Below, one piece after another: positions 5,002 to 57,354 of a DNA stretch of 64,000 bases. Positions within the stretch are counted from its first letter, which is position 1, and each line of letters begins with the position of its first letter. The DNA comes from Gordius albopunctatus (Eukaryota): positions 8,556,001 through 8,620,000 of the forward strand of contig OZ193910.1 in NCBI GenBank assembly GCA_964276515.1. The letters run 5' to 3'. Both the position numbers and the translations under genes were made by a program. Under the pieces are notes generated by a model. The model was given only the letters and a program-made list of their open reading frames with translations. It did not search any database and had not been told where the DNA came from.

Positions 5002-5852
5002 TTGTGTAAACTTTTTCAAGTATCGCAAGGCAGCGTGTTATAACATTGACCCCACACGTTGGTACTAATGTCGAACAATATTTTAAATTCGAAAGTATAA
5101 AGTTACTTCAATAAATGTATCCATATTTTGGTCTGAGGGGGTTCTGTTATTTATTTCTGTATCCCGCATAAATATTTTACAAAGACGGATATATATGTTT
5201 GGTAAAATCAGAGCCATTTGATTAAATCTTGATTAAATGTCGATTAAAAATAAGCCTTATTATTATTAAATATATTATATTACCTACTCCATAAATAAAA
5301 TAATGACAAAAAACGAATAGTTGTTTTACCTATTCGACACGCCATGGTAAGAGAATAGGGAAGGTACTTAAACAGCAGCTTCTTTTGAAGTAGTAAAAAT
5401 TTGAAATATATGTAGTGACGTCAATTAATTTTGTAGAATCGAATCCAATGACGTCAATTAATTCTATTTCTAAGGCATTCCCAGAAAATAATCGATCTTC
5501 ATGGAAACTCATTGATTAGTTTAGATCTTCCAAGAATAGTATCGATTTTCCAATGATAATGATTATATATTTTATAATAACTTTATAAACTCAATTTACG
5601 CACATGTTCAATCAATCGTGTAATTTTTATTCCCCAGTTTTTTATATTCGTCGAGAAATAAAGTAACTTGTAACTGCGTGCAAGTTATTAAATAAATCAT
5701 AGAGCAACTGATTTAATTAACTAGATCAGAAAAATTTAATTTCAGTATGACACTAATTAAAAATCAACGAACAGAATTTATTGAAAACCATGGGAAGAAC
5801 CTTAACGTTAAATGGTGTCACAGTTAGTGGCATAGCTAACTTTTACCTTTAA

Positions 5853-6136
5853 TCGCCATCTGCCCAGGTAGACCAGTCGAATAGCTCCTCTTTTTCGTCG
5901 AAGCCGTCTGGAAAAGGTTCACTCTCTGGTGGTTGTCCCGAGATGATGGATGGAACTGTGTACCTTTCAGGAGACAAACAATTACGGGATGGGTATTCGG
6001 CCGGGTTCTCGTCTATTGGGATCTATTGGATGTTGTAGCGGATGGCTAGGAGAGCGTTGAGCCCGTACTCTTTGATGAATCGTGAGATCAGCTCCTCGAT
6101 GATTGGTGAGTTTGATTCTCCTTTAAGTAGAACGTA
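5853..6136 (-). mobile_element. Fragment of a diverged relative of the 27421-30563 retroelement (end of RNase H plus acidic tail)
   Basis: Translates YVLLKGESNSPIIEELISRFIKEYGLNALLAIRYNIQ*IPIDENPAEYPSR...EELFDWSTWADGD, collinear without gaps with the C-terminus of ORF 27774-29813. Confidence 0.92.
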
Positions 6137-19973: not shown

Positions 19974-22900
19974 TGTTAAGGGCTTGATGTTTATTCACAT
20001 AAACTATTCGTACTGGGATAAAATAATCTAAAAGTCAAAGTTACAACCAATTAACGATAATTTGATCGACAACACGCAGGTAAATAATGTAAACACGCAG
20101 GTAAATACGTATCCCATTACCTATCTACAGTTCCCCCCTTTTCACAGACAAAATCCTTAAGAAATGCTGGCGGTTTCCGTCTACGCTGCGGGTATCTCGG
20201 TTCTTCCCTAGTCGTTCCTGTCTGGTTTTGGCTTTGTTCCCTTGTCGCACTTGTTTCCCTGTTTTGCATTTGTTCCCTCTTCCCTTTCTGATGATCTTCT
20301 TTGTGGCCACCCGTTCTCTATCCCAGCGTTGTCCAATCCAGGATTCTCCCTTTCCTTACTTGATCCAGGTGTCGGTGGTGCTTTCTTCCCTGTGCCCATA
20401 TATCGTAGGAACGACTCCCGTGTTTGGCTTTTATCGTGCCTTCTACCCATTTGCTTGGACCCAAAAACATGCGTACCCAAACCAAGTCTCCTGCGTTGAA
20501 CATTCGCGGGTTCCCGGTCTCTACCCATTATTGTGGTACGATTTCCCTCAATACCTCCCATTCGGTTCGCATACGCCTTTTTAGCATCATCTCTGCCGGG
20601 CTTTTATTGGTTGCGGGGTATTTTGTCGATCTGTAGTTTTCCGAAAATCTACTTAGCCCTATTTCCGACTCGTTTCTCATGATGGCTTCTTTCATTAATC
20701 GTACGTATCTTTCTGCCAAACCGTTCGACGCAGGATGGTACGGAGCTGTCCATCGCTGATTAATCCCTCTCATCTTGCAAAAGTTCTGTAAATCTTGCCC
20801 TTCGAATTGTGGACCTTTATCTGATATTAACCATGGTGGATTTCCAAATCTAGCAAACGTTTCGGCCAGTTTTTTTATAATGGTTGTCGATGTGGTGTCT
20901 TCTAATTTAAACACCTCTAACCATTTCGACCTCTTGTCCCTCATCACGAGGTATGACTTGCCCTTGAGAGGGCCCATGATATCGATATGTAGTTGGACCC
21001 ATGGTTTATGGCTAGGTTGACACTCTATCAACGTTGCCTTCTTCGCCGCCGTGGCCGTGTAATTGCAATTCCGGCACCCTTTCGCTACGCTCAATAAGTC
21101 ATCGTCGAGAGTAGGCCACCATATATACTGCCGCACCACTTCTTGCATTCGCTTGGTGGCCCCTATGTAGTCTTTGGAGTACCGTTCCTAGTAATTTAGC
21201 CGGAATTAATATTCGTCGCCCTTTGTAATATATTATGCTTTTGGCTTCATGCAACTTTGGCAGGTGTTATTCGTAGGCGCGTTTCAGACCAGCGTTACCA
21301 TCGTGTTTTTTTACCTCTAATCCACTCTTTTAATTGACGTAGCCCCGGATCATCTAAGGTGTCTTGTCTTACTACGTCCAATGATATAAACGGATTCGTC
21401 GAGTCTTCTGGCATTTCCTCGCTAACCTGATGCGCGTGTTCGTTCGGTTTCCCAGACAAGAAATCTGCCGCGTTTTCGGATCCCTTGTTGTACTCAAACT
21501 TAGTCGTGTAGCCTGACACCATGAGCGCCCACCTAGTTAGACGAGGTGACCATTGTTCCTTGCCCTTTTTGCTCTGATCAAATATATATACTAGCGGTCT
21601 ATGATCCGTCATAATAGTAATGCTTCGTCCTTGTATATATTCATTGAATTTTTTAATCCATACACCACCGCTAGGGCCTCTCGTTCGATCGTCGAATACC
21701 GGCTTTCGCTATCGTTTAACTCTCTTGACACATAGGCCACCACCCTCCAATTCTCTCCTGGTGCTCGTTGCTGTAATATGGCCCCTAATCATGTACCCGA
21801 GGCGTCTACGACCAGGCCAGTCTCCCAATCTCCATTAAAGTACGCTAGTACGGGGCTTTCGTAAGCGCGGACTTGATAGCTTCAAATGCGCCTTGTTGTT
21901 CTCCACCCCAGTGATACACCACATTTTTTTTCATTAGTTTCTGAATCGGGTGCACGATTTTGGCGTAGTCCTTAATGAACTTTGAAAAATATGCTGTTAA
22001 CCCCAGGAAGAATTTTATTTCATTTTTGTTTGTTAAATTTTTCCACTGCTTGACTATTTCGGCTTTATTGTCGTTGATTTGAATCCCCTTGTTACTTATT
22101 ACGTATCCCAAAAAGGTTACTTCCTTCGCCCACAAGATGCTCTTGGCAATGTTTGGCACGAACCCCCACTTTTGTAACGTTTCTAGTACTTTGAGTATCC
22201 GCTCGTTGTGAATTTCTTCCGTTTCCCCTGCGATTAATATGTCGTCGATGTATACCGCTACCCCCTCCATGCCTCCTAATATTTGGTCCATTGTTTTTTG
22301 GAAAATAGCCCCGGCACAATTTAAGCCAAAAGGCATCCGGTTAACTTTAAATAAGCCCTTGTACGTAGAGATCGTCAATCGTTGGCTCGTCTCTGGCCCT
22401 AATTAGAGCTATAAGTACGCTTTCGTAAGGTCCAGCTTCGTAAAATAACTTTATTTAACAAATCGTCGATTTTGGGTAAGGGGTAAAGCAACCCTTGTGC
22501 GTATGTCATTTTCTGCCAACAGTCTCGCCTCTAGGCTTCTATCGCGCAATCATATAATGAATTGGTCGACGATTCTGCTCTGCACTTCTTCACTTCCAAA
22601 GTTGCAGCTATTAGCCCCGGCCTTGAGTCTATTAGCGTACACGTCTATCGTCTCTCCCTGGCCTTGTCGGACCTTTGAGAATTCGTATCTCTTTGCCCTC
22701 GTACATGAATTTCTCTGGAATAATTTCCTTAACCGATTTTTCGCTTCTTCTTATGTAATTCTTGCGGTCTATAATCCTCTAGTATTAATTGGAATGCATC
22801 ACCCTCGAGGCTGGTTAATAATAGCGCGGCTTTTTGTTCATCTGTCTCCGTCTTATTGTTCCTAAGGAATAACTCAAATTGAGTTAAGAAAGCGTCGATG

Positions 22901-25470: not shown

Positions 25471-27133
25471 TCTATATATATAAAGTAAAGTCTATGTATA
25501 TATATGTGTGTGTATGTATGTAAGAGCTAAATTCTGAAACTACCGGCCCCATTCGCGCGAAAATTTAACCGTAGATGTCCAAGACGGCCAGGGGTAAAAT
25601 AGCTTTTTCAGAATCCTAAAATTCCTTTTAGTTTTAAAAATATGGGTATTTTAGTTTTAAAAAATGGCTTAATTCTCAAACTACCTGCCCGATTCGCGCG
25701 AAAATTTAGCCGTAGATGTAAAAGGAGGCCAGGGGTAAAATAGCTTTTTCAGATTCCTAAAATACCTTTTCGTTTTAAAAATATCGGACATTTCCCGGCC
25801 AGTTTAATTTATAGCAGCATATACAATAATGACATCATACATACAAGGCTGAAGTTTTCTCGAATTAGATATTTAAAAGTATAATAAAAATGTTACAGTA
25901 TACGGTCAAAATTATTGGGGTTTTATTTAAATAAATAATATTTAAATTAATAGCTTTTGCAGAATCCTAAAATTCCTTTTAGTTTAAAAAAAGGGATAAA
26001 TTCTGAAACTACCGGCCCAATTCGCTCGGAACTCTACCCGTAGGTTCCCAGGGCTCCAGGGGTAAAATAGCTTTTTCAGGTTCCTAAAATACCTTTTCGT
26101 TTTAAAAACATCGCACATTTCCCGGCCAGTTTCATTTATAGCATCATATACAATAATGACGTTATACATACAAGGCTGAAGTTTTCTCGCATTAGATATT
26201 TAAAAGTATGATAAAAATGTTACAGTATACGGTCAAAATTATTGGGGTTTTATTTAAATAAATAATATTTAAATTATTTTCACGTGGTCGATCATGGAAG
26301 CATATTTTTAATATATATCCATCCTTCAATTAATTATTATATTATAGAAAATTGTTTTTCAAATAAATTAGCTAACTAGAAAAATAAATTAATGGTATTA
26401 TTGTATAATAAGCAGGTTTTGAATTATGGGGGGGGGGCAGATTTAAAAAAAAAACTTTTCTCGACTATCCAAAAATTTTCATGAGAGCAAAAATAAGGTC
26501 TTCGACTACTAAATTCCTAAATTTTTTCTGAGACCCGCAGAGGGTAGCCGCCCTCCCCTGACTAATTAGGGGGGGGAAGATAATTTTTTAAGGTTTTGTA
26601 TTGAAAAATTATTTTTTTAAAATTAGGGGGGGGGGTGCAGGGGTACGCCCATGAATCAAAGTCATTTTTTTGCTTATTTTATGTCATTTATTATTATTAT
26701 TATAGGACGGTCGTGTCCCCTCCTGCGTGGCTAAATAAATTAAAAAATCTAATTTTGTCATTTTTTGCGCGTTAAATAAGGAGAAAAATGAAAATACAAT
26801 TAACAAAGTGCCAATAAATGTTGATATATCTCAGTTCTTCGGACATTATTAAGTTCAGAATTAAAAGTTTTATTCGGAAACAAATAATTATGATATTGTT
26901 TCTTAATTACAAAAAAATATAAAAAATTGCTTGAAGGCCCAGGGGGCCAAAGATGTTTCCCTTTGGGGCGGGGCATGGGGCCAGGTTTTATCTCTTGCGT
27001 GGGCCTGGGCCTTGTACCCTCTTTAACTATTTGTTTGAAAATTATCAAATTATCATCATGTATGCCCTAAAATTCCAACATAATTTAATACACCCGGGTA
27101 AATGGCAAAACAACGTTTGCCGGGTTCATCTTG
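25471..27133 (+). mobile_element. Non-autonomous Helitron, copy 2, with expanded internal tandem repeats
   Basis: Same 5' end, body and 3' hairpin as 18786-19817, ending CTTG|T. The AAACTACC...GGGGTAAAATAGC unit occurs three times. Confidence 0.85.
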
Positions 27134-27661
27134 TTTTTCATATATGGTTTTATGTATTCCGACTAAAAGTGCCGTTAGATATATTGTTTAACCATTTTGG
27201 TAAAAAAAAATTTAATCTAAAATAAAATAAAAAAGCAAATGAATTTTTTGTCTGGACCGAGCCCGGGCTTGTGAATTTTTATACTGACCTCTAAAGGCCC
27301 ATTGCCGGTATCTAAGAGTCATTTATTAATGAATCTGGTTTTTTGTTTCAGTATCTAATTTTCATTAGGAATTCCATTGGTTTCGGTTCTTTAAGAACCA
27401 ATAAAATAAAACAAGAGATAGGGGGATATCCCGAATGGCGTCCATGATTGGACCTGTGGGTTCCGGCAGGGATATTCCCTGCTATCCCCCACAGCGTTTA
27501 TTTATAACTACTATGTATACATTTATAAATAAACTAAGTAAACAGTTCCGAAGTATTATTGAGATAAATTTCGAGTCGCGGTAATGGTGTGATAAAATAA
27601 GAAGTCGCGCTGCGAAAAAGAGAAATTTTTTGGGTTAAACATAAGTGTAAGGTAATCGGCG

Positions 27662-27791
27662 AAATTTTAGGATATAAGTATATAAGTTGGATGATGAAGG
27701 TGCGTGAAAGGTTTGTAGATCGCGAAATGCCAAAGAGCGTCGGAGAAACCAGGGGATTTCCTTTTATAGGCGTTCATGTAATGGACGTGGT
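27662..27791 (-). repeat. 3' copy of the 130-bp direct repeat (contains the ORF2 stop codon and a TATA box)
   Basis: Matches 30434-30563 with 4 substitutions by manual count. Confidence 0.95.
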
Positions 27792-29813
27792 GGATTGTTC
27801 CTGTTCTGCGTCTTCGTCATCTTCTAGAATTTCGCCGTCAGCCCACTGAGACCAGTCGTAGAGGTCTTCCGTTTCATCAATGATGTCGGGCATTGCTGTC
27901 GAGCTTGGAGGTTCCCCTGTGAGTATCGAGGGGACCGTGTATCGTTCCGGGGGCAGCCATGTTCGGGATGGATAGTCCGCCGGATTTTCGTCGGTTGGTA
28001 ACCATTGGATGTTATAACGTATGGCCAGGAGGGCGTTGAGTCCGTATTCTTTTACGAACCTGGACACTAGCTCCTCAACGACAGGGGAGTTGGAGCCTCT
28101 CTTCATGAGGACATAGTAAGCGGTCGTGGAATCCGTCCTGATCCTGGGGAAGGGGAGGCCTTCGTATTTAGCTATTAGGTATCCATATATGGCACCGAGC
28201 GTTTCGAGAAGCGTAATGTGAGGGTCAGCTGGGAGTTTATAGTTGATGGCCGCTGCCGCGTCCTCGAATGAGATGGAAATGTCATTGCCCTGGATTGTGA
28301 CCCCAATGTGTTCGCTGGAAGCGTCCGTGTAGACCGTGACGTCCGGTGGGACGTATAACGGGATACGGTGTTTTAGGGAGTTTACGACTGCGAAGAGCTT
28401 GAAGCATGCTGCATTCATATCAAAGAAGCCCTCCCGTCCCGAGAGATATGCATAAAAGGGTGCCAGCAGCTTGGACATGCCGGTTAAGTTGTATAAAAAG
28501 TAATTAAGAACTCCGAGCGCCTCGAGTAAGATTTTAGTGGGGGGAGGAGTATTTGAAGTAAAGGCAAAGAATAATATATCGGATGCATATTCAAGTCGCG
28601 TTACCGTAGCATCCGAGCATCTAATGAAATGATCCATGAAAGAGATCTTCATTCCTAGGTAATCGATCTCCCGTTCCTGCCATATTGATGATTTCTGTGT
28701 GTTTATGGTCAGCCCCCATTCGGTTGCCAGGCTGATGAGGGATTCCAGATCCTCCTGTACTTCCATAAATGAGTTTCCGTAAATAAGAATGTCGTCCAGG
28801 TAGACGTTGTATTTGCACCTGGTTACGGCTTTGGCTGTCAGGTCGGCTACTACCATCTGGAGCACATATGGGGAGAATGAGGCTCCCATAGTAAGAACCT
28901 TGTATCGGTATTTGATGCCTTCATAGGTGTAAGTGGCGTACTTGCGTGCTGCCACGTTGAGAGGAATGCTGAAGAATGCCGCCTTGAGGTCTATGTTAGC
29001 GGCATATGATGATTTGCTCAGCTGTCGAGAAGTCAGCGGGATAGAGGCCAGTTTGATGGGATAGTGGATGAAGTTTTTTGAAACCTCGGAAAGATCCGTA
29101 ATAACCCTGGCGTCTCCGTTGGATTTTGGGATAAAAAAGGTAGCTGATTTAATGATGTTGTTATCGGTTTGTTCTACCGTACCCGTTTCTACCATAGTCC
29201 TGAAGTGTTCAGGCTTTCCCCTGGATATGGCTTTACGTCGGGATGTAAGAAAAATGCCGTTATGTAGCCTTATCTTGGGCATATCTAGTTTTGGCATGAA
29301 TCCCTTTCGTGCGATCCTCCTGGTGAAGGGGGATTGCGAATCATGGGGGATTAGCCTTGAAGTGGCGATGTTGAGGGGGCCCGACGGTGGTGTGCGCGTC
29401 GGCTCCTTGTTCCACTGAAATAGTGATTTGTGGAGACTAAAAATGGGCATCGTTTCCGAGCCCAAGTCCCGGCCGAAGGCGGCCTCCACTTGCGAAATAC
29501 GGTGCTCGAAATTGGGGGCGGGGACGAATATGTCGGAATAGTTAGCAGAAGGTATTTGGATCGCTCCCGTCGCCCCCGACGGGAGTTCGGAAGGAGAGGA
29601 AATCCAGCGGCGCGTCTCCTTAATTTGGAATATAAGCTGTGCGAGCCACCTGGGAGACCTGGATGAATTCCCTCCTTCGGGAAGCGGTACGCCTGACGGC
29701 CCGACTTCCCATGATCCTACCAAGGCTTTAAGCCTGCGCCTTATCCCTGGCAGAGGCCGGCGCCTTTTTGAAGTTGCGGCCCTTTGTGAAGCTTCTGCCT
29801 CTGCCAGCGCCAA
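27774..29813 (-). CDS. Reverse transcriptase-RNase H polyprotein (ORF2)
   Basis: RT motifs FFIPKSNGDARVITDLS, IDLKAAFFSIPL, LTMGASFSPYVLQ, YLDDILI and YLG. RNase H motifs YTDAS, HITLLE, IRTDSTT and NPADYPSR, then an acidic tail. The listed start is TTG; the first ATG is at 29450. Confidence 0.93.
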   Translation of the reverse strand: MALAEAEASQRAATSKRRRPLPGIRRRLKALVGSWEVGPSGVPLPEGGNSSRSPRWLAQLIFQIKETRRWISSPSELPSGATGAIQIPSANYSDIFVPAPNFEHRISQVEAAFGRDLGSETMPIFSLHKSLFQWNKEPTRTPPSGPLNIATSRLIPHDSQSPFTRRIARKGFMPKLDMPKIRLHNGIFLTSRRKAISRGKPEHFRTMVETGTVEQTDNNIIKSATFFIPKSNGDARVITDLSEVSKNFIHYPIKLASIPLTSRQLSKSSYAANIDLKAAFFSIPLNVAARKYATYTYEGIKYRYKVLTMGASFSPYVLQMVVADLTAKAVTRCKYNVYLDDILIYGNSFMEVQEDLESLISLATEWGLTINTQKSSIWQEREIDYLGMKISFMDHFIRCSDATVTRLEYASDILFFAFTSNTPPPTKILLEALGVLNYFLYNLTGMSKLLAPFYAYLSGREGFFDMNAACFKLFAVVNSLKHRIPLYVPPDVTVYTDASSEHIGVTIQGNDISISFEDAAAAINYKLPADPHITLLETLGAIYGYLIAKYEGLPFPRIRTDSTTAYYVLMKRGSNSPVVEELVSRFVKEYGLNALLAIRYNIQWLPTDENPADYPSRTWLPPERYTVPSILTGEPPSSTAMPDIIDETEDLYDWSQWADGEILEDDEDAEQEQSTTSIT

Positions 29814-30411
29814 GAAATAACTGCTTTCGTGGCTGTACGACCTCCAGGTTTGGAATATTCCAATCCTCTGCGAAAGACTTGTCGTTTCGCACTGCCGTAG
29901 CCCAATTGAAATTGATTGCTGTGGCTAGGGTGGTTAGGCGTGCTGCTGTTTCCTTAAGCAAAGCGTCTGGGGATGCTTCTGATAATGTATCGGAGACCAA
30001 GAATATGTATTGGGCCTCCTTTCTATCCCTCTGGGACACCTTGGATGGAAAGTTGGACATGAGCTCCTTGAGCTTATTGATCTTGTCCTCGATCTTACTG
30101 ATCTTCTCCGCTTGTGTCTTTGGTGGCACTTCCGGCTGTACTATGTTGATGGCCGGCTGCGGAGTGGCTCTTTGGACTGCCAGCTGTTGGATCAGTTGTG
30201 AGATCGTCTGTTGTGATTGGGCAAATTGGGCTTGAGCCCTTCTATTTTGGCTGGTCATCACCCTAAGAATTTCTGCCATTTCTATCGGCTCGTCATGCCC
30301 TGATGGGGTTGGGGAACCCCCATCCGAGCCGGACCCGCTGTTATCGGCGGGGTTTGCGGCCGTTGCTGCTCTAGGGGTAGTTACCTGGGTAGTTTTTTGG
30401 GATCTTACCAT
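29728..30411 (-). CDS. ORF1, putative Gag/core-like protein (227 aa)
   Basis: ATG about 120 nt downstream of a TATA box. Low-complexity N-terminus, Q-rich and coiled-coil-like middle, basic RG-containing C-terminus overlapping ORF2. Function is inferred from position only. Confidence 0.7.
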   Translation of the reverse strand: MVRSQKTTQVTTPRAATAANPADNSGSGSDGGSPTPSGHDEPIEMAEILRVMTSQNRRAQAQFAQSQQTISQLIQQLAVQRATPQPAINIVQPEVPPKTQAEKISKIEDKINKLKELMSNFPSKVSQRDRKEAQYIFLVSDTLSEASPDALLKETAARLTTLATAINFNWATAVRNDKSFAEDWNIPNLEVVQPRKQLFLGAGRGRSFTKGRNFKKAPASARDKAQA

Positions 30412-30433
30412 GTTTCCTTCGAATAAAACTAAT

Positions 30434-30563
30434 AAATTTTAGGGTATAAGTATATAAGTTGGATGATGAAGGTGCGTGAAAGGTTTGTAGATCGCCAAAT
30501 GCCAAAGAGCGTCGGAGAAACCAGAGGTTTTCCTTTTATAGGCGTTCATGTAATGGACGTGGT
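30434..30563 (-). promoter_or_regulatory. 5' copy of the 130-bp direct repeat, probable promoter
   Basis: CCTATAAAAGG on the minus strand (TATAAAA at 30534-30540) upstream of the ORF1 ATG. Confidence 0.7.
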
Positions 30564-30868
30564 AATTTAATTGCGGGCACTCCTGAAAGGGGTTGTTATT
30601 ATCTTCTAAAGTATATCATTAACCTGCAAATGACAAAAAAAACTTCAATACAAAAACCCTAAAAAATTGAAAAATTTTATAATCCCCCTAATTAAATTTG
30701 AACAACTTTCACCCCCCCCCCCTCCTAATCCAAAACCTGGCTACGCCCATGTGGGTATTGACACACATATTATGTCGTTATTGTCTTAGACATATGAATA
30801 TTTTAGCTTTAATAACACGCATATACTTTATTTAAAAATATCAGATGAAAAAATCATCGTGCTAAAAG

Positions 30869-32523
30869 TAGAGGCCTGCAAAATCGATTTCTCTGAGGCC
30901 CGCCTCGAGCTCGGAAATTTAAAATAAATAAAGTCCGGCCCGACTTGGGGCCGAATTTTAGCATTTTTAAAATAAAGGCCGGCCCGAAACTTTAAAAAAT
31001 ATAGAAATTTTAATAAAACAATATTTTGGTAAAACTTTCATTAAAAAATGAGACTCATAGAATATAATTATAATTTTATAATTGAACTCTTTTCATGTAA
31101 AAAGTCACAGGCATCTTATATGTCCGCATTCAAATAGTTGTTCTTCGTTCTTCATAAATGCGTTTTCCAATTTCTCTAAATTTCCCTTTTTCAGGACTTC
31201 TTTGTAGCATTTTTGCTTTTAAAGATGAGTGTTCCCTAATCTCTATTAAGCATTATCAAAACTAACATAAATTAATTGTCTGAAGTGCAAGAATTTTATG
31301 ACTATGATAACACATTCTTGCAGTTCTTACAAACAACAAAATCAATTTTCTTACCCTAAAAAACTGCAAAGTCACTTTTTTTCAACCCGAAAGCCTTCTA
31401 AAATTTTCAACCCAAACCCGACACGAAAGCCTTTTAAAGTCTTCAACCCGAAACCGAAAGCATTTTGAAATTTTTAACCCGGACCCGACCCGGCCGAAAG
31501 CGTTTAAATTTTTTTACCGAAAACTCCCCGAACACGTTTCAAATTTTGGTATCCAACGCGAGTGTAATGAAAATCACGATTTGCATGATGGGCGTAGCTA
31601 GGGGGTTGCAGGACGGGCGGCTGCCTTCTCTAACTCCAAAAAATCTTATAAATTTTATCAAATTATGGCTAAAATTATTAATAGACAAATTAAAGCGCGA
31701 TTTAGTAAACTAAATCGACACCACACATTTTGATTACACAATTTATTTGAATGATTTATTAAGAGAGTAATTATGATAGCATCGACATTATCGGGTCGCA
31801 TTTAATTTAAAATATATTGTTTTGCAAATGAACCATTTAATAAATTTATACTTTTATGTTTTATGAATATATATGTAGTTTTTAATAATGGACTACTACT
31901 TTGCATTATTTAAAAACAATTTAGCGTCCAAATTAAAACAATCAGATTTAGAAAAAAAACAAAATGAATTTAATTAACTGAATGTATGATCTTTAATTAT
32001 ACATTTCAATATTAATTAAAAAATATAATACATAATAGCATTAACTAAAACAAGATTCATAACCTTTGACCCGACACTTTAAATCCAACCCGAAAGCATA
32101 TTAAAATTTTAAACCCGAAAGCCTCTTAAAAATTTCAACCAGAACCCGAAGATATTTCAGAATTTTTAACCCCGGGTGACCCGTGCAGTTCTCTATCTTA
32201 CCCATATTCTTATACACAAAAAAGAATCTTTTCATACTTCACTCATTCCTAGGTTTTCTTTTACTTTAAAAATATAATTATTGAATATTTTCAGGTATTA
32301 GAAGTAGATTTTTTTGCTTTATACTCAATCGTTGGTATATTAAAAAAAGCATGAAAAGTTAACAAATTTATTACTTGACTAATTAATTATTGAAAATCTG
32401 AGATATTTTTTTAAAATAGAATCAAATACTACTTAGGACTACTTTTATAAATTAGGCACGGCCCGGAATTCTGAGACCTTAAAATTTAAATCCCGGGCCG
32501 GGCTTTTCCGGTGCAAGTCTCTA
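30869..32523. mobile_element. Nested non-autonomous DNA transposon remnants (TAGAG..CTGCA ends, AACCCG/GGCCCG subterminal repeats)
   Basis: TAGAGGCCTGCA at 30869, TGCAGTTCTCTA at ~32194 and TGCAAGTCTCTA at ~32523. AACCCGAAA clusters at 31380-31520 and 32070-32180. Confidence 0.5.
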
Positions 32524-32983: not shown

Positions 32984-35900
32984 TCACGAGGGACGCTGAT
33001 TGAAATTATTCTGTAATCGAAATATATTTTGGACAAAGGCGCCCTGATGACGAGGAAACATTGAAGGACCCCTGAAATAGGGTCCATTTCTTAATGAGTC
33101 GTTTAGTTCTGGCCTACTACCACGATTCATAAAATTAAACATTCTATGCCCAAAAAACGGTTTATTGTTGGCATTTTGATTATTGATGTGAAAATTGTCA
33201 TTGCGTTGACGAACGCCCAGAAATCTATTAAGGTTGGCCATCATGTTTAATTGGATATTATTTGGCATAGGCAGGTTCGGACGCATAGGCATGTTGAGGT
33301 TCATTTGAAATATTTTGCTAGCAGCTCGGGCAAAATTTTGATTGCCGAAACTGGGGTCATTGGAAAAATTTTGGTTATTTGACTGATTAAATTCATTTTC
33401 GAAGTGACTATTGGGATGCGAATTGATTGGACCGTTCAAAATATGATAGACATCTTGGACCCTATTGAAAAATTGATTGTCAGCATTACCGGTGGAATCG
33501 TTGGGAAAATTGCCATTTCCCCTACCATTAACCCCCATGTTATTATTATTATGTATAAAATCATTTGATGTGTGATCATCTTGGAAATTATTTAGCGCAT
33601 CATCATCGTTTTTAATTGATCTTCCATCCTGATAATTTTTTGCTAAAGCATGGTCGTAGAAAAATGAATTTAAATTTTGTTGCTGAATTTTCATATCGTG
33701 TTCATCGGATGGATCGTTAGGCGTTTCAGTAATATCCAAACCAGGGATGATGAAAGAAGATTTAATCGAATCGAGGCCATCTGACGATACAAATAATAAG
33801 CAGCAAATTAAACATCAAAACAGAAAAAATACCTTTAGTGACCATGTTTTGAGGTACTGGTGATAGAGTGTTTCTTTCGATTGTCTGACTATGATCTAGG
33901 TATAAAAAATTTGTAATTAAGGTTATATTTGAAATAACATATACCATTCGTGTATCTACTGAAAGTCATAAATTCTTCGTTATTAGTTAGACTGGAAGAT
34001 AAATTAACTGGGTTCATATGATCTTTTTCGTAGATCACATCGCCAGGCCTATTCCTAGTCCAAAACTTCCTAGAAAAAAATAACTAATCATATATAATTT
34101 TACTTACGTGGTGTGATCATTTGAGCCAGATACTAATATATGACCAAGAGGGTGCCAAGATAAACTCCATATAATACCATCATGTGCTTGTTCAATACCG
34201 CCAACATCTTTTTCGCTTCTAAATATTTGAACAAATAAACATTAATATGAAAATGAATTCGATTTGGTTAAAAAGTTTAAAATGTTGGAGAATACTCAGT
34301 TAAAGTTTATCTGAATGCCTTTTAACATTAAAAAAACTAACCCAATTGTCCAATATAATAAGGTTCCATCTGCTGATCCACTAACGAAAAAGCCCTCGTG
34401 TATTGGATGCCAAGCCATCGCTTTTTAACGGTTCAAAATAAAAATTACTTAATAAAATCATTTGACATACAACAAAAGGGGATAATAGTGTATAAAAATG
34501 AGAATAGGATAAATTGTGATAAACTTAAAAGAATCATTATCCAAATAAAGGTTTCCGCCGATAAACTTAACTTACATGTTACATCTTTTTTGTGACCCTT
34601 AAAAGATTGGACTTCCTCTCGCAAATTTCTGATATCGTAGAGTTTTATAGAATGGTCCCTGGATCCCGTTATAAGCCAATTACCATTAAACGTATTCCAA
34701 CTTAACGACATTACAGTGCCTTTATGCGAATGTCTATAATTAACACAATTTATATCTTGAATTTTTAATTACGAGAAAGTCAAACGGCTTTCGCGACTGC
34801 TTATACTTTTAGTTTCATTTTCTATTAAATGACAAATGCATTTAATATTTGAAATGAATTAATATATTTATCATTAAAAAATTTAACCAACAACTAGGAA
34901 AACATAAAACGTTATATTAATCAATGATATAAGTTAATAATATATAACGCAATTTAAAATTAAAAAAAAATTTAGTTTAAAAAAAAAGCTCCATTTAGGG
35001 GAAAAAGCTTTAAGTTAATGCATTGCTAAATATATCCTTTAATAGGCCGCACCAAAGAAAATATTTTTTTTTACTTAATTGGATAAGCATTATATTAAGT
35101 CTAAGGTTATGGGGAGGCAGAAATGATATTTCTAAACAGTAGCTGATCTTTGAAAATATAAAACCAAATAAAATTTAAAAAGGAACTCAATTTGTGCTTA
35201 ATAACAACATAATAGTGATGGAAATAAAGAGAAACTTTATTGATTATAATTTCAACACTCGCTTTAAAAAACAATAAGTGTAAAATACAATAGGGCAGCA
35301 CATGAAAAATAGATATTTCATATTGGATATAAAAATATATTTGAAAAACGCACATAGTTGCTAAAGATTGACCAGATCTTGGGTCCCACAATTTTACGGG
35401 TTGTTGATTATCTTTGCTCCCCGAAGCAATCAATGCCTTGAAAGGATGCCAATCCACGCTTTTAACGTCAGACCCGTGACCTTAACAACAAACATATACT
35501 TAAGATTCATCGTAAAATTAAGGTTGTATAATAAGCAGAGAACGGAACACTGATGTCAGAATGCTTAGTAGGGGGGGGATGAGGCCAAAAAGGCATAAAT
35601 TTTTATTTAAAATGATTTTGTTTTGTCTCAGAGAACTTGGGCGACAGCGCAAATATACATTGTCTAAGCGGAAAAGAGTATTGAAAGGTACATTAAAGAT
35701 TAGATAGAAATACTGAATAACAAGAGCCAATAGCTAAGCATATTTTATTCCAATGTAATATAAACGATTTTTGAAAAAATGTTACAGTAGACGACTTGAT
35801 AAAGGTTAAGAAAGATTTGAAATTAAGTGAGACAGAACTTTACTTTTTCTAAATTTGCCTTACAATTTGGTAGAAGAACTAGATATTTTCCAGTTATAGT

Positions 35901-43100: not shown

Positions 43101-46100
43101 CTTCTTCTTCTTGATCAGTTATTTGGTCCCACATTGGTGGGGTTTGTTTTGATGAGTCTCTTCCATCTTGACCGGGTTAGTGCCATGTCTTGACTAATCT
43201 CCTTAGTTTCCATAACTTTATCGACTTGCCTTTTCCACGTGACACGGGGTCGTCCTCTTCCTCTCTTCCCCGGTATTTTCATGTCTAGCACTTTTCGATT
43301 TACGTCATCCGAGTCCCTTCTTAGTATATGCCCATACCACCTTAGCCGATTTTTGTTAATCATGTCCGCCATAGATTGAATACCCATTTTTGTCATGAGA
43401 AAGTCATTCGTCATATGGTCGAGCTTAGTATACCCCAAGCTCCACCGTATCATTCTCATCTCCGTGGCTTGTAATAGCTTTCCTTCCGTGGTGTTTAATG
43501 ACAATGTTTCACTTCCATAGAGTAACACCGGTATCACGATGGATTTGTAAGCTTTGCTCTTCAACCATATTGGCATTTTCTTGTCGCACACTACACCGGA
43601 TATACTTCGCCATTGAAGCCATTCTTTTTGAATCCGGGCATTGATTTCAGTTGCGCAACCTCCCTCTTGATGTAGCATAGAGCCGAGGTAAGTAAACCTG
43701 TCTACTTTTGGGTACTTTAGGTGGTCATCCAGCGATGGGGTGCTTGTACCGTTCATTTCGATGTATACCGTTTTTCGATCGTTGACCTTTAAACCATATC
43801 CAGCTAAGCGCTTTGACCACTTTTCTGCTTCTTCGAATACCTTCTCCCTTGTTTCCTCGCATAGTACTATATCATCGGCATATAGCATACACCATGGCGA
43901 TGGCTTTTGAAAGTCCCTCGTTATCGTGTCTATAATTATATTAAATAAAAAGGGACTTAAAGCAGAGCCTTGATGTAATATAATATTAACCCGAAAAGGT
44001 TTAGAGTCACCAACTGTCGTCCTAACGCAAGAGTTTGAGGCTTCATAGATATTTTTCATAAGCCGTATATATGCGTCAGGGATATTTTGTTTCCTCAAGC
44101 ACCATCATATTAAATCGCGGGGGACCGTGTCATAAGCTTTCTCCAAGTCGATAAAAACCATATGTAGGTCTTTCCTCTTTTCACCATACTTATCCATCAT
44201 TTGTCTTAGGGCGAAGATTGGGTCGATTGTGGATTTGCCGGCCACGAATCCGAATTGATTCGCCGATATTTCCACCTCGTTTTTCAGCCTTGTTACTAAG
44301 ATCCTTTCCAAAAGCTTCAAGGAGTGGCAAGTTAGCTTGATACCTATGTAATTGCCACAGTCCTGAGGGTCTCCTTTCCCTTTGAATAAGGGTATAATCG
44401 TGCTTGCTCTCCATTGATTAGGGATTCGCTCTTCTACCAATATCTTGTTAAGGAGGTTCGTCATGGTGGTGACTCCTTCTTCACGACATCCGAGCAATGC
44501 TTCCATAGGTATTCCATCTGGGCCATTTGCTTTTCCTTTCTGCATCTTGTTCATTTGTGTCCTAACTTCATCCTTCTGAAAGAGTTCGACCATACTTATA
44601 TTTGGCTCAATTTCGGGAAGGGAATCCTTGTCATTTGCAATATTCATAAGTTTCTTAAAATATCCTTTCCACCTTTCCATCACTTCCTTCGGCTTGAAAA
44701 GGGTTTGACCCTTCTCGCTTTTGACTATTTTAAGAACTCCGACATCTCGACTTTTCTTCTCTCTTATCTTGGCCAATATGTACATAAGCCTATCGCCCCC
44801 TTTATGATCCAGTTTGTTTGCCATCTCGGTGTACGCAGCATTCTTCGTTTTTGCAACGGCCTTTTTTGCGGCCCTCTTAGCCTCCTTATACTCTTGATAT
44901 TGCTCCAAATTTTTTGATCTATGCCACCGTGTATATAGATTTTCTGTCTTCTATGAAATCCCTTACCGATTAATCCCACCACAATATTTCCCTATTCATA
45001 GCTTTGTCTCCTTTGGTCTCTCCTTGAACACGAATCGCTATTTTCTTTATGTCCTTAGTTAGCGTCTCCCAATAGTCGTCTACGTCCCTTCGCAACTTCA
45101 TTGCACCCAAGAGTGAGGCGGCTTTTTGATGCTATTCTTCGTTCGTCGACGTATCCTTTAGCCTTTCGTATCGAATTCGAGGTTCATATACCTTTCTTCT
45201 TTCGGGAAATACTCTTCTGTCAAGATCCATAACAAGGGGACGATGTTGCCTGGCGATCTCTTCTCCCGGTATTACTTTGCAATCCTTGATACTCCATAAG
45301 TCCTTTCGCCGTATAAGCAAATAGTCGATTTGACTAAAATGCTTCCCACTTCTATAGGTCACAATATGATCTTCGCGCTTTTGAAAATAGGTGTTAACGA
45401 TCGCCATGTCATATGCTTGGTATACTTGGAGAAGTTTTTCCCCTTCTTTGTTCTTCAGACCATGCCCATAGCCTCCATGATTGCGTTCATACCCGAGGCG
45501 ATCTTTCCCTACGTGAGCGTTGAAATCGGCCCCAATAATTAGTCTTTCTTCCTGTCGGATTCCTTGTATTTCCTTTTCCAATGATTCGAAGAATATGTCT
45601 TTCTCTGATTCCGAACACCCAATTTGGGGAGCATACGCGCACATAACGGTTAGGAGGCCCCCTTGATCTGCAATCTTCACCCACATTAGCCTGTCGGAAC
45701 AACGTTTGACTTCCACCACCTTGTCCTTGAACGATTCGCTTAGAACGATACCGACCCCGTTTCTATGATTTGGTGAACCACTGTAGAAAAGCTTGTATCC
45801 TTCTCCTAATTCCCGAGCTTTCGTTCCGTTCCACCTCGTCTCTTGTAGGCAGGCGATGTGTACCTTTCTTCTTTTTAACATCTGTGCAACCTCGATGCTC
45901 TTCCCCGTCAACGTTCCCACATTCCAGCACGTAATTCGCATTCTTTCCACAACTAGTTTCCTTAACCGCCTTCGTTGTGAGTTAGGCAGTAACCCTAGTG
46001 TATTTTTCACATTGCACGGGCGGGGTATGCAGTGCGCGTCGTTTGTGGAGGACGTCCTAGCCTTTTCTTGTGAAATCTCGTTTGAAACTATCATAAATTT

Positions 46101-46186
46101 TGGAGTTGATTTTTATAGTCGGTTTCCGACCTGACGCCAACCCTCCACTTTTTGCACACGGACTTGGGACCGTCGTAGGTAGTGTT
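43101..46186 (-). mobile_element. Full-length defective RTE-clade LINE, copy 1
   Basis: APE endonuclease (WNVGTL, LQETRW, GADFNAH, SQIDY) plus RT (DLEKAYD, HQGSALSP, YADD). (AAG)n tail; 16-bp TSD TCTACCGATCATGCAT at 43085-43100 and 46187-46202. Confidence 0.97.
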
Positions 46187-50224: not shown

Positions 50225-51289
50225 TTGAATAGTAGACAGCAGATCAGGTGTGTAAATTTCTAGTTTTTGGCCAAAAGAACTAATGACTAAATTTCTAAAA
50301 CCAATCAAAACATTTGACATATTTGCAAAAGATATGACATAACATAAAAATTTAAAATTATTTTCTTGTCTTTTAATCAATATAAAATTATTGATTTCAT
50401 ATTGAACCTTGTTTTGCATAACATTTAATTTCTCACTCGCGTTATATCATAACCAAGTATGAATTTAATTAAAAAACAATAATGATGGAATTTCATGAAT
50501 AGAAAGTGCAATCTGCATAGTTACTTATTTACCTTGTATGTTCACATCTTTTAAGTAGTTAACACATCCCAAGAAAAATAGGAAAGTAAGAATAAATAAA
50601 TTGGCAGATTTAGAACCATATTGTAGGAATGATGATCGATACTTTCATTTTTCATATTTTCTTAATGTAGCTTTATAAATTAATGCCAATAACAATAATG
50701 TCTAGTTTACTAGAATTAATAATTTTTTTGAATAAAATAACACAGATCTACAAAAAAACCATTCTGCAAGCGGACCAATAATTTTGATAGAGAATTTTGC
50801 GCTGATCACAAATATGTTTTTAGTTTTCCCCCCAAAATTTCCAGTTTTTTAGATATATGAAGTTAAAGGTGCAAAAAAAGGCCTTTTTAAGGTATTTTGA
50901 AGTTAAATACCAACGCCATTTTAAATTTATATTGAAAAAAATTAGTGTTTTTGTGTAGATTGAAGTCTCATCTCCCCGTGTATTAATTTATTTTGTTTAT
51001 TTCACCTCTATATTTAGATTTATACGCATTTACGTGAACCCCTTCCCCTTATCAAAATTCGTCCCACAACATTTGGAAAAAGGAGTACAGTAGAGTACAT
51101 ATTACACACGCGCTGTTTACTAACACATCTCTCTCTCCCTTTCTCCATCTCTTCCACTCCCGCCCCCATATCTATCCAAGCACACATGAAGGGGACGGGA
51201 GTGGAGGAGATAGAGAGGAGACTCAGCAATGTCATAATTGCCAGGTCAGCAAAATACATAAACATGTTATTTCTACGCCAGGTACATTT

Positions 51290-52511
51290 AACCAACCAGA
51301 TGCTCGATTCAGCCATGTCCACCTAGACATCGTTGGTCCCTTACCACCATCCAATGGTTACAACTACATTTTTACAGCCATAGATAGATACACCCGGTGG
51401 CCAATAGCAATACCTATATAGTACATTTTTAACACATTGGATAGCAAACTTCGGCGTGCCAAGCACTATAACTACCGACAGAGGATCGCAGTTTCGTTCA
51501 ACGCTATTCCGACAATTTTCCCAACTTCTTGGTTATCATCACATAACTACAACTGCCTATCACCCACAAGCCAATGGGCTGGTCGAACGTTTCCACCGTC
51601 AATTAAAGAGTTCGATCATGGCAAAAAACAACACTAACAAATGGTCCGAATCACTTCCGTTGATATTACTAGGCATTAGAACGACAATCAAAGAAGATCT
51701 AGCCTGTTCTAGTGCTGAACTAGTATATGAGACTACCTTACGGCTTCCGGACGACTTCATACAACATTCGTCACTCGACAGCAATGCTAGCGAGTTTGTA
51801 CAACGCCTTAGACAACATTTCGACAACGTACGTTTTTCACCACCACGTCAACCTAACACTAAACAACATATCCCTACCGATTTGTTTTCTACAGCTTACA
51901 TATTTATCAGAACTGATAAAGTTCGAAAAAGCTTATCCCCACCATATGAAGGCCCTTTCAAAGTTATTGATAGACAAACTAAATACTTTGTAGTAGACAG
52001 AAACGGGAAACATGATAACATTTCTATCGATCGGTTAAAACCAGCTTATACTGAATCCGTCAACCATACTGAACCACTTTTAAAAGGCCCGCTCATTCAA
52101 ACCAAACCTTCCACCTCTACGTCCACAACAACCTCAACTAACACTACAACAAATCATACAACAACAAAATCAGGACGAAAAGTGCATTGGCCAGTTAAAT
52201 TAGATCAATACCTTTATTTTTAGCACTCCTTGCAAACTGGAGGGGGAATTATATGGTTACCTAGGCAATTTGAATAAAGCAACTCGCATCGGTTACCTAG
52301 GAAAAAAACTTAACCTTTATTATTCAAGTATTCATACACCTTAATCATAAAAATGAATACATTCAAGTATTTGAATGTCTGACAATTCAACGTTATTATT
52401 CACACAAATAACCTCGCCAGATGTGTATATAAACGCGATATTTGAAAAGTATTTATTCATTTGTTTTGCTTTCTATTATTTGGAAATAAAATAGTTGTTT
52501 GTTCTCCTACA
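51290..52511 (+). mobile_element. Gypsy 3' fragment: integrase, PPT and probable 3' LTR
   Basis: TTDRGSQF, AYHPQANGLVERFHRQLK, PPYEGPFKV and ISIDRLKPAY. PPT GGAGGGGGA at ~52240, then an LTR-like segment with TATA and AATAAA ending CTACA. Confidence 0.88.
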
Positions 52512-55500: not shown

Positions 55501-55641
55501 GTCACGTGGAAAAGGCAAGTCGATAAAGTTATGGAAACTAAAGAGATTCGTCAAGACATGGCACTAACCAGGTCAAGATGGAAGAGACTCATCAAAACAA
55601 ACCCCACCAATGTGGGACCAAATAACTGATAAAGAAGGAGA
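52558..55641 (+). mobile_element. Full-length defective RTE-clade LINE, copy 2
   Basis: Near-identical to copy 1 in the opposite orientation. It has its own 19-bp TSD, ATTTTACTATA(T/A)AGGACTT, at 52539-52557 and 55642-55660. Confidence 0.97.
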
Positions 55642-57354
55642 ATTTTACTATAAAGGACTTGAGCAGCAACAAGCGCGTCATTTAAGACAAGCGCTTTAAA
55701 AGAATTAAATAGACTGAAGTACCCACACCATTATAAAGGTCCTTCGCAAGACGCGCTTCCTTTATTTAAGGTCCCTTTTTTTACTATTTTCCTCCCCCAT
55801 GGTCCTAAATTATCGATAAAATTACTATCAGGTGGCCGCACTTGTTTTTATAAAAACGACATATGTGCCATATTTTCAAGTTACATTAACCATCACATTG
55901 ATGAAACAAATAAGGCATTAGGGCAGTGATACTTTTCACTATTTACTTAATGACAATAACATAACACCCCTAAGCCTATATATAGTCCATCAAGGTCTCT
56001 ATGAAAAAATAATACACTAGTGGTCGGTTTGTAACAGACCCACACTGAATGTATTCCCAAGAAGAGAAGACTAACAGTGTGGGTGTGGCTATTTTTATTA
56101 AGACTATAAGAGAGCACCTCAACAAACCGTAGGGCGCGCCTTCTAGCACGCCCTTCACAAAACTACAATGATTGCATATGAGCAAACAACAATTGCAGGA
56201 GGAACATCCATGAAGAATTTGGATTAACTTGTTTTGAAATCTTCAACGGTAGTTTTTAGCAAGCTTCTTTCATCGTCTTATTGCAACTTTAATTTTCGAA
56301 TCTTTAGGATTATAAAAGGCATTACTTAATGATAAATATCAATTTAAACTTTATAATTAACATTAGCTCTCTAAGACATGGGATCTTTATAATGAGGAAA
56401 ATTTGGATTAGAATGAGGAAACTTTTTGCCAGAAAGAAAAAACATTTTAGATTGTTACGGATCCTTTTCCTACAATTATTTTATTGGTTCAATAAATCCA
56501 AAAAGTTTTTCAGTCATGTAAAAATCAGGTAGCAACACTTATATATATTTATTGGCAAATTTTTGATGTGTAGCTTCCTCCTAAATAAACTCTAAGACTA
56601 CCTTTAAATTTGATCGTATGCAAAACGATTACAACAATGGGGTCATCTTCCGTTGCATTGAATAATGATGTGGAAAAACCGAGAAAAATCATAGTTTTGG
56701 AGACGGACGAGAATTTGAAAAATTGAGTTGAGATCGAGGCAACAATTTTGACCTAGAGACGAGAAGAGATTTTATATTCGAGATCTCAGCTTAAAACTTT
56801 CTTTATATGGGATAAGGAATACATAGAATAGAGTACAACTATTATAAGGAATTGGTAAATATATGTAATGTTAATGAAGGAATCTTTATTTAATATATGA
56901 TTGTGTGATTTAAAACTAAATATAATAAATGATAGCATATGATAACAATCATAATAGGATAGGCCGAGCCGGGAAGGGGCGTAAAAAAAGAACAAAGGAC
57001 AATTAATTTTATAAAAATGAATATGGAAAAAAAGAATATATATGGAAAAGAATACAATGATTAATGAGATGATAATGGGGAAATTCTTTTAGAATATAGA
57101 ATTGAGTGATTTGAAACTAAAGAAAATAAAAGATACTATATGATGACAATGGTAATAACTAAAGGCAGAATCCCGAAGCTACGATAATGCTACTGCTACG
57201 ATTTCCAAATTTCCATATGTTTTTTAATTTTAAAGTTTTATCATATCAGCGATAATATTATGGGGACTTGGTTCAGGCAGCACAGAAATAGGAGCTAAAA
57301 CCCGTCACGATCATCACATTTCGTTACTCTCGTCACGAAAACCATATGAAAATT

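What the first reader, a model, noticed from the sequence alone, without database searches (positions are those of the whole stretch)
27421..30563. Intact ~3 kb retroelement with hepadnavirus-like RT-RNase H and no integration enzyme
Seen: two uninterrupted overlapping ORFs fill the element. There is no room or motif for a protease, DDE integrase, APE/REL/GIY-YIG endonuclease or tyrosine recombinase, and no TG..CA ends, PBS, PPT or TSD. Known, recalled by eye: LTMGASFSPYVL, RVITDLSEVSK, LLAPFYAYL and WLPTDENPADYPSR resemble hepatitis B polymerase IPMGVGLSPFLL, RLVVDFSQFSR, LMPLYACI and YVPSALNPADDPSR. Other motifs (FFIPKSNG, YLDD, YTDAS) look DIRS-like. The layout of a basic-tailed ORF1 overlapping pol, with 2772 bp from repeat to repeat, also echoes hepadna/nackednaviruses and the insect HEART elements. 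Inference: this may be an undescribed retroelement or endogenous pararetrovirus lineage between DIRS and hepadnaviruses, with an unknown integration route.
Basis: partly seen in the sequence, partly recalled or inferred. Interest (0 to 1): 0.9.

Follow-up and report, generated by a model that had tools for sequence, protein, structure and literature searches.

The report
Integrase-free retroelement near hepatitis-B ancestors
This is an intact, repeated 3.2 kb animal retroelement that encodes a reverse transcriptase with RNase H but no enzyme for inserting itself; its enzyme groups, with moderate support, near hepatitis-B-like viruses rather than DIRS transposons, so it likely represents a transposon-grade relative of those viruses that would enter chromosomes at DNA breaks.

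Summary
Observation confirmed and refined. Minus-strand element, 30563-27401: repeat A1 (130 nt, TATA-like box), ORF1 (227 aa), pol (558 aa from Met159; RT plus RNase H), repeat A2, and a 261-nt tail ending in GC-rich hairpins. Read contigs show copies about 90% alike, mostly synonymous changes (17 of 23 in pol, 9 of 11 in ORF1), a shared 3' end near 27401, and the same pol-A2 and A2-tail junctions. No tyrosine recombinase, integrase, hepadnaviral terminal protein or core was detected. The only close relatives are unannotated Gordionus (horsehair worm) proteins, 37-48% identical. In RT+RNase H trees the family falls outside DIRS1-type elements (AU p=0.016) and joins 11 unnamed RT-RNase H proteins and Blubervirales (97/84), but outside Blubervirales. 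No labelled HEART, PAT, Ngaro, VIPER or TATE sequence could be included, and profile similarity is higher to DIRS than to Blubervirales. Best reading: a HEART-grade retroelement with a readable anatomy, probably copied from the RNA's 3' end with one jump through repeat A and captured at chromosome breaks. The mechanism is inferred only; a recombinase supplied by a helper element is the main rival.

The parts
30434..30563 (-). Repeat A1 (130 nt) with a TATA-like box starting at 30540; predicted promoter, with transcription likely starting about 30 nt downstream of the box
   Evidence: promoter role inferred, no RNA data
29728..30411 (-). ORF1, 227 aa: low-complexity start, long helix 42-82, three helices 98-176, basic tail; gag-like RNA-binding or particle protein (inferred)
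   Evidence: 9 of 11 listed variants synonymous outside the overlap; no family, core or fold match
29451..29727 (-). GC-rich spacer between the ORF1 stop and pol Met159; stop-free in the pol frame but without synonymous bias; high summed contig depth; possible cis element
27774..29450 (-). pol, 558 aa from Met159: DIRS-like pre-RT segment, RT (YLDD), RNase H, acidic tail; the stop codon lies 18 nt inside A2
   Evidence: 17 of 23 listed variants synonymous
28644..29129 (-). Reverse transcriptase domain (PF00078, aa 266-427 of the 716-aa frame)
   Evidence: E 8.5e-25
27963..28340 (-). RNase H domain with four aligned acidic residues (DAS, E, TDS, NPAD motifs)
27662..27791 (-). Repeat A2, 126 of 130 nt identical to A1; joined to the pol end and to the tail in divergent copies too
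   Evidence: bridging contigs X1 records 2 and 4
27503..27661 (-). Tail B, middle part; AT-rich and variable between copies
   Evidence: 84% alike contig; joints that replace this part
27401..27502 (-). Tail B, terminal 100 nt: AATAAA at 27502, then GC-rich hairpins and a T-rich end; the most widely shared part; defined 3' end at about 27401
   Evidence: z -3.3, 2 of 200 shuffles as stable; loose ends at 27400/27401; small deletions fall in the hairpin loop at 27472-27476; no Rfam family
5852..6136 (-). Decayed 285-nt fragment of an older copy: end of RNase H plus acidic tail, 70% alike, one in-frame stop, no repeat A or tail beside it

Best explanation
This is an intact, multi-copy retroelement that encodes a reverse transcriptase with RNase H and a likely gag-like protein but no detectable integration enzyme; its polymerase groups with moderate support near hepatitis-B-like viruses rather than DIRS1-type transposons, and it likely copies itself from the 3' end of its RNA and would be fixed at chromosome breaks. 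Shown: the anatomy A1-ORF1-pol-A2-B, divergent copies under purifying selection, a shared 3' end, and no detectable recombinase, integrase, terminal protein or core. Inferred mechanism: (1) RNA starts inside A1 after the TATA-like box and runs through A2 to the structured tail; (2) ORF1 packages or chaperones it; (3) pol binds the conserved terminal hairpins and starts minus-strand DNA at the RNA's 3' end, primed by a free chromosomal 3' end pairing with the T-rich end, with no first strand transfer, which is why B sits at one end only; (4) at the RNA's 5' end the new DNA jumps once through the shared part of A onto the A2 copy, rebuilding the promoter half of A1; (5) host repair seals the other end, with nicks or breaks coming from the host or from co-resident LINE endonucleases. 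Odds: lineage identity about 0.7; this copying route given that identity about 0.5; other routes within the same identity take the rest.
For: Close relatives are only Gordionus proteins: 3 of 12,648 hits reach E<=1e-30 and all are Gordionus. Careful tree, 52 rows x 404 columns: family + 11 unnamed RT-RNase H proteins + 8 Blubervirales 97/84, DIRS-type 18 rows apart 97/92. AU rejects family+DIRS, p=0.016. Same placement with RT alone (SH 87), without Blubervirales (87) and without the unnamed rows (95). Collinear 25% match over 417 columns to rockfish nackednavirus P, covering RT and RNase H. The only RNase H Pfam signal is the hepadnaviral family (E 0.14). Synonymous bias. In divergent copies pol runs straight into A2 and A2 into B, leaving no room there for a recombinase frame or a B1 repeat. 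Gordionus P0008 and P0043 also end in acidic tails after RNase H. The last 100 nt are far more widely shared than the body, and 8 and 11 contigs leave the sequence just upstream of them, as 3'-anchored copying or shared-end dependants would give. No internal complement of the termini.
Against: No labelled HEART, PAT, Ngaro, VIPER or TATE rows were in any tree, and the group labels are mine, from motifs and Pfam. Deep branches are short and end branches long: FastTree pulled two unrelated long rows (P0004, P0016) next to the family. Profile scores rank DIRS-type (336) above Blubervirales (251), below the unnamed group (456), and no Blubervirales protein is among the best 150 hits. VIPER-like elements carry a recombinase and their RNase H also groups with hepadnaviruses (PMC6681497); the best atlas clusters are Euglenozoa hypothetical proteins. 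The 5' ends of other copies and all empty sites are unseen, a high-copy repeat abuts A1, and no whole genome was held. AATAAA at 27502 may end the RNA before the T-rich end, which would break step 3. Both read sets come from one study and may be the source sample.
Confidence: 0.5

Rival explanations
1. It is a recombinase-less, helper-dependent member of the split-repeat DIRS order (PAT-, Ngaro- or VIPER-like). It makes its own cDNA and circle and is integrated by a tyrosine recombinase from a related complete element.
For: A gag-like ORF1 followed by RT/RNase H without protease, and a 5' repeat reappearing internally near the 3' end, resemble split direct repeats (PMC6681497). The pre-RT segment aligns with DIRS-type proteins and the profile score to them is 336. 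A palindromic 18-nt near-repeat sits at the start of A and near the end of B, as a recombination site might. Most of the best 150 hits are DIRS-type.
Against: There is no B1 copy, and pol ends inside A2 in at least two copies. No recombinase similarity anywhere in the 64 kb window (3 queries). Family+DIRS1-type is rejected. Both genes remain under purifying selection in this layout. The family does not nest among the DIRS-type rows of the 167-row tree.
Confidence: 0.25
2. It is the integrated form of a small non-integrating reverse-transcribing virus. ORF1 is its capsid, replication is episomal, and copies enter the germ line through host repair, as hepadnavirus DNA does.
For: Size near nackednavirus genomes (2,766-3,105 bp; PMC5604429); two-gene layout with a basic-tailed first protein; tree position next to Blubervirales; best query TM-scores among the 50 viral structure rows shown are 0.44 for an unnamed 634-aa protein and 0.42 for hepatitis B P.
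Against: No terminal protein or core signal; no capsid fold for ORF1, though that model is weak (pLDDT 51); copies share one precise 3' end rather than random break points; related copies of different ages lie on Gordionus contigs of 31-94 Mb; no relative in viral contigs.
Confidence: 0.13
3. It works like an endonuclease-deficient Penelope element: A1 is only a truncated piece of a second copy in a partial tandem (pseudo-LTR), and its left edge is arbitrary.
For: Penelope-like elements form pseudo-LTRs with a tail at one end only, are often 5'-truncated, and include endonuclease-free forms (PMC8557442). The 3' end here is the most shared part.
Against: A1 matches the start of the 3' non-coding region, not its end, which a simple partial tandem would not give; the tail is 261 nt, not 30-40; no hammerhead core or Rfam ribozyme; the RT has an RNase H and sits among LTR/DIRS/hepadna-type enzymes.
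Confidence: 0.08
4. It is a Gypsy-type LTR element that lost protease, integrase and part of its 5' LTR.
For: Best solved-structure matches are Ty3 and foamy virus RTs; A plus B could be read as one 391-nt LTR.
Against: Gypsy-type rows form a 100/100 clade apart from the family; no TG..CA or primer-binding site; those libraries hold no DIRS or hepadnaviral polymerase among the hits.
Confidence: 0.04

Closest known systems
HEART retroelements (7 Ixodes tick rows in the supplements of PMC12691608; original description not held)
   Same: Invertebrate genomic retroelements whose RT is related to Blubervirales and whose mobilisation is described as unresolved (PMC12440569; PMC12691608).
   Different: By eye, HEART RT motifs (LPFG[IL]RP[AG]PF; catalytic YIDN/HLDN) differ from this family (MGA[SG]FSPY; YLDD). 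HEART ends and gene content were not seen, and no HEART sequence was in the trees. The unnamed P0038/P0056/P0117 group, next to the family in the trees, resembles HEART by eye only.
Blubervirales: nackednaviruses, proto-nackednaviruses, hepadnaviruses
   Same: Collinear RT-RNase H (25% over 417 columns to rockfish nackednavirus P), shared MG...SP and NPAD motifs, about 3 kb, no protease or integrase.
   Different: No terminal protein, no core motifs, YLDD instead of YMDD, 130-nt repeat plus one-sided tail instead of short DR1/DR2, fixed chromosomal ends; excluded from their 100/100 clade.
VIPER/TATE, PAT-like and Ngaro-like tyrosine recombinase retrotransposons
   Same: gag-like ORF plus RT/RNase H, 5' repeat repeated near the 3' end; VIPER-like RNase H also groups with hepadnaviruses (PMC6681497).
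   Different: No recombinase, no B1/B2 pair, no methyltransferase or hydrolase; relation by tree untested.
DIRS1-like elements
   Same: Pre-RT segment, RT and RNase H align well (HHalign 336); they dominate the distant hits.
   Different: No inverted terminal repeats, no internal complementary region, no recombinase; a shared clade is rejected.
Endonuclease-deficient Penelope-like elements
   Same: Retroelement without an insertion enzyme, repeat plus one-sided tail.
   Different: Different RT class, RNase H and ORF1 present, no hammerhead core.

Membership tests
DIRS order (DIRS1-like, PAT-like, Ngaro-like, VIPER-like) | Tyrosine recombinase gene | tested here: not met
   No Pfam or PHROGs hit in the frames scanned; 3 recombinase queries found nothing in the window; bridging contigs show no extra frame between pol and A2. 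Other full-length copies not seen.
DIRS1-like | Inverted terminal repeats and internal complementary region | tested here: not met
   No exact inverted match of 9 nt or more joins the termini to each other or to one internal block; none.
DIRS1-like | RT/RNase H nests in the clade | tested here: not met
   18 motif-labelled rows form a clade without the family; AU p=0.016.
PAT-like / Ngaro-like / VIPER-like | Split direct repeats A1...B1-A2-B2 | tested here: not met
   Only A is repeated; B occurs once.
PAT-like / Ngaro-like / VIPER-like | RT/RNase H nests in these clades | not testable with these tools
   No labelled reference protein of these groups was returned by any search.
Blubervirales | Terminal protein domain before RT | tested here: not met
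   Profile of 8 P proteins: control 136 bits, the element's frames at most 3.9 bits; no BLAST match of aa 1-158; HHalign match starts at RT.
Blubervirales | Core (capsid) protein | tested here: inconclusive
   A profile of 19 hepadnaviral cores gives ORF1 -0.3 bits but holds no nackednavirus core; the fold model is weak and matched only generic helical bundles.
Blubervirales | RT nests inside the order | tested here: not met
   8 rows form a 100/100 clade on a 1.58 stem without the family.
Blubervirales | Circular episomal genome, DR1/DR2, epsilon | tested here: inconclusive
   No Rfam hit; no tail-to-head joint among the joints shown (15 of 40; 3 of 3); only assembled contigs were available.
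HEART | RT clusters with the Ixodes HEART sequences | not testable with these tools
   HEART sequences were seen only in a paper supplement; motifs differ by eye.
HEART | Element anatomy (ends, gene content) | not tested
   Original paper not held.
LTR retrotransposons (Ortervirales) | Protease, DDE integrase, full LTRs with TG..CA, primer-binding site | tested here: not met
   tree
Penelope-like elements | Telomerase-related RT, GIY-YIG endonuclease or hammerhead in pseudo-LTR | tested here: not met
   RT with RNase H resembling Ty3/foamy/hepadna enzymes; no GIY-YIG; no hammerhead core. No Penelope RT was in the tree.

The most novel reading that the evidence does not exclude
A distinct order-level class of retroelements, with ORF1, RT-RNase H and an A-body-A-tail layout but no insertion enzyme, terminal protein or known capsid, is active in animals and widespread on small unnamed contigs, and it is the living transposon-grade stock from which hepadnaviruses arose by adding protein priming and a core.
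Probability: 0.3. Interest if true: 0.92.

Novelty: new variant of a known kind. Interest (0 to 1): 0.74.

Why it matters
How hepatitis-B-like viruses arose from retroelements is open. HEART elements are their published retroelement relatives, but are described as few, often mutated at conserved RT residues and of unresolved mobilisation (PMC12440569). An intact, selected, multi-copy element on that side of the tree, with readable ends, relatives in a chromosome-scale Gordionus assembly and no terminal protein, would let one ask directly how such an RT is primed and how an element spreads without its own insertion enzyme. The search also exposed at least 11 unnamed RT-RNase H proteins on the same branch, several on contigs of 2-3.6 kb, which suggests a much larger undescribed group.

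Tried and rejected
No whole genome is held, so copies could not be collected. No RNA holder was listed; this is no evidence on expression. Viral contigs held no relative of pol, of P0023 or of the P0117 group; two motif scans returned hepadnaviruses and unrelated contigs but no nackednavirus. The metagenome scan gave 4 loci of 560 candidates, all Gypsy-type on inspection. One homologue search returned only primate hepatitis B virus proteins (plus one unnamed row) among the 120 rows listed of 366. Rfam gave one chance snoRNA match outside the element. A purine tract before A2 is weak: the nearest 13-of-15 purine run starts at 27825 within acidic codons. A candidate empty-site joint 27231-30993 has only 21 letters on one side and was not used. 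Summed contig depth was not read as copy number. Four look-ups of earlier findings were empty. Nine literature searches showed no description of this family; the Gordionus genome preprint has no occurrence of 'DIRS' or 'retro' in its main text (its tables are images and its supplements closed). Repbase, Dfam and subscription papers, including the HEART paper, were not searchable.
Full report
Observation. The window is AT-rich animal-type DNA with LINE and Gypsy relics; a GC-richer island runs from about 27400 to 30560. On the minus strand it reads: repeat A1 (30563-30434), 23 nt, ORF1 (30411-29728, 227 aa), a stop-free frame 29924-27774, repeat A2 (27791-27662, 126 of 130 nt identical to A1), and a tail. 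The long frame carries RVT_1 at aa 266-427 and an RNase H fold at its end (model pLDDT 54 overall, mostly 60-85 over the thumb and RNase H region). Such frames do not arise by chance: 0 of 1000 shuffles reached 558 aa. No recombinase, integrase, protease or endonuclease was detected.

Copies. No genome is held. Two contig sets from one study hold the element; they may be the source sample. Beside exact contigs lie others about 90% alike (for example 56 differences in 529 nt and 40 in 432 nt), and an older 70% fragment sits at 5852-6136. Of the variants the tool listed (40 rows in each call; 460 and 37 more were hidden), 42 fell in the two frames. Synonymous were 17 of 23 in pol from Met159, 9 of 11 in ORF1 outside the overlap, and 3 of 8 in the long frame upstream of Met159. 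So both genes are under selection and pol most likely starts at 29450, as a Gordionus model also suggests. Contigs of other copies leave the window sequence at 27400-27401, which fixes the 3' end. One divergent contig bridges the pol end and A2, another bridges A2 and the tail, so the recombinase-free junctions are not unique to this copy (X1 records 4 and 2). The last 100 nt are much more widely shared than the middle of the tail. They fold into GC-rich hairpins (z -3.3), and the small deletions seen there fall in a hairpin loop. The 5' ends of other copies were not among the 12 loose-end rows shown of 69, and a high-copy repeat abuts A1.

Relatives. A search of 1.84 billion representatives gave 12,648 hits; the 3 below 1e-30 and one RNase H fragment are unannotated Gordionus proteins, 37-48% identical. 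The other 146 of the best 150 are 22-35% identical. By motif and Pfam (72 proteins scanned) they are mostly DIRS-type, some Gypsy-type, and about 20 are unnamed RT-RNase H proteins, most with NPAD-type ends where the RNase H is present, from ENA, Logan and JGI contigs, many of 2-3.6 kb. Hepadnavirus references came from viral contigs and three nackednavirus-like P proteins. Pol aligns with rockfish nackednavirus P over 417 columns at 25%, through RT and RNase H.

Trees. FastTree on 167 rows (4 dropped for lack of a matched catalytic motif, P0043 and P0009 left out) put the family with Blubervirales and 13 other rows, apart from DIRS-type and Gypsy-type clades; two of those 13 are unrelated long branches. 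I then chose 52 rows: 3 family, 8 Blubervirales, 14 unnamed, 18 DIRS-type, 9 Gypsy-type; the labels are mine. The careful tree gave family + 11 unnamed + Blubervirales 97/84, DIRS-type 97/92, Blubervirales 100/100 without the family; 3 unnamed rows went with DIRS. Holding family and DIRS together was rejected, p-AU 0.016. RT alone, and removal of either Blubervirales or the unnamed rows, kept the placement at SH 87, 87 and 95. Against this, profile scores were 456 to the unnamed group (selected partly by motif), 336 to DIRS-type and 251 to Blubervirales, and no labelled HEART, PAT, Ngaro, VIPER or TATE row was available. The atlas listed Euglenozoa hypothetical clusters first and hepatitis B P in 12 of 30 hits, all at about 0.94. 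Viral fold matches ranked caulimovirus- and retrovirus-like RTs first by E-value but hepadna-like P proteins highest by TM-score; that library's rows included no DIRS protein.

Not a hepadnavirus. A terminal-protein profile scored 136 bits on a control and at most 3.9 on the element; a core profile scored nothing. ORF1 is predicted helical with a basic tail and has no match. The segment before RT aligns with DIRS-type and unnamed proteins, not with P proteins, which fits a state without protein priming.

How it likely works (inferred). A TATA-like box at 30540 implies an RNA that starts inside A1 and so lacks its promoter half, while A2 supplies a spare copy. If minus-strand DNA begins at the RNA's 3' end, with no first strand transfer, and jumps once through A when it reaches the 5' end, the product is exactly A-body-A-tail. 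The conserved terminal hairpins would be the pol-binding site and the T-rich end would pair with a chromosomal 3' end. With no nuclease of its own, the element would rely on breaks or on LINE endonucleases; two 99% identical LINE copies lie in this window. The weak points are the AATAAA at 27502, which could end the RNA early, the unseen 5' ends, and the lack of RNA data. The main rival is a split-repeat element that borrows a recombinase; an 18-nt palindromic near-repeat at the start of A and near the end of the tail would suit that.

Literature seen. PMC12691608: part 1 of 3 of the text, supplement 4 part 1 of 20, supplement 5 (cut), supplement 6 parts 3 and 5, search passages. PMC11551314: part 1 of 2. 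PMC12440569, PMC5604429, PMC8557442 and bioRxiv 10.1101/2023.06.26.546503: passages. PMC6681497: passages and Background. PMC7192593: abstract and Introduction. PMC11673190: abstract and outline. The HEART paper was not held, so HEART anatomy is unknown to me. Nine searches showed no description of this family; Repbase and Dfam were not searchable. Four look-ups of earlier findings were empty.

Verdict. A real, intact and selected retroelement family without a detectable insertion enzyme, outside DIRS1-type elements and outside Blubervirales but probably on their stem. New variant of a HEART-like kind; interest 0.74. The chance that it marks a distinct class ancestral in grade to hepadnaviruses is about 0.3.

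Noticed in passing
proteins P0017, P0023, P0027, P0038, P0052, P0056, P0060, P0062, P0068, P0079, P0084, P0117, P0137, P0145, P0147: Unnamed RT-RNase H proteins without a terminal-protein signal in those tested, several with weak hepadnaviral RNase H Pfam hits; many lie on 2-3.6 kb contigs and group on the Blubervirales side. Possibly a large undescribed group.
   Followed up: partly
proteins P0280, P0281: Unnamed Logan proteins on 3.3 kb contigs with terminal protein, RT and RNase H families; they tree as proto-nackednavirus-like and nackednavirus-like P proteins.
   Followed up: partly
window 29438-29860: The ORF1 end and spacer have about ten times the summed contig depth of the pol body and a locally stable fold (z -3.3 at 29775-29676), suggesting a cis element shared by more copies or by non-autonomous relatives.
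   Followed up: partly
window 30560-30543 and 27456-27439: An 18-nt imperfect palindrome at the start of repeat A recurs, slightly changed, in the terminal hairpin region; in a few contigs of other copies the terminal motif appears again in inverted orientation just beyond 27437.
   Followed up: no
window 27401-27438: Eight contigs of X1 share only the last 37 nt or so and then continue with other sequence, hinting at other elements that use the same 3' end.
   Followed up: no
window 27506-27497: A TATA-like and an AATAAA signal overlap just before the terminal hairpins.
   Followed up: no
window 43102-46186 and 52558-55642: Two 99.25% identical, oppositely oriented LINE copies with endonuclease and RT frames broken at the same places (RTE-like, label recalled).
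   Followed up: no
window 20528-22492, 51221-52223, 60088-63299: Gypsy-type relics with RT, integrase or gag/protease pieces.
   Followed up: partly
window 32984-33814 (minus strand): A 276-aa Asn-rich frame with a hydrophobic start, probably a host exon of a secreted protein.
   Followed up: no
window 26335-27137 and 30566-30751: High-copy short repeats flank the element; the one at the 5' side abuts A1 and looks cut at that edge, which hides any target-site duplication.
   Followed up: partly
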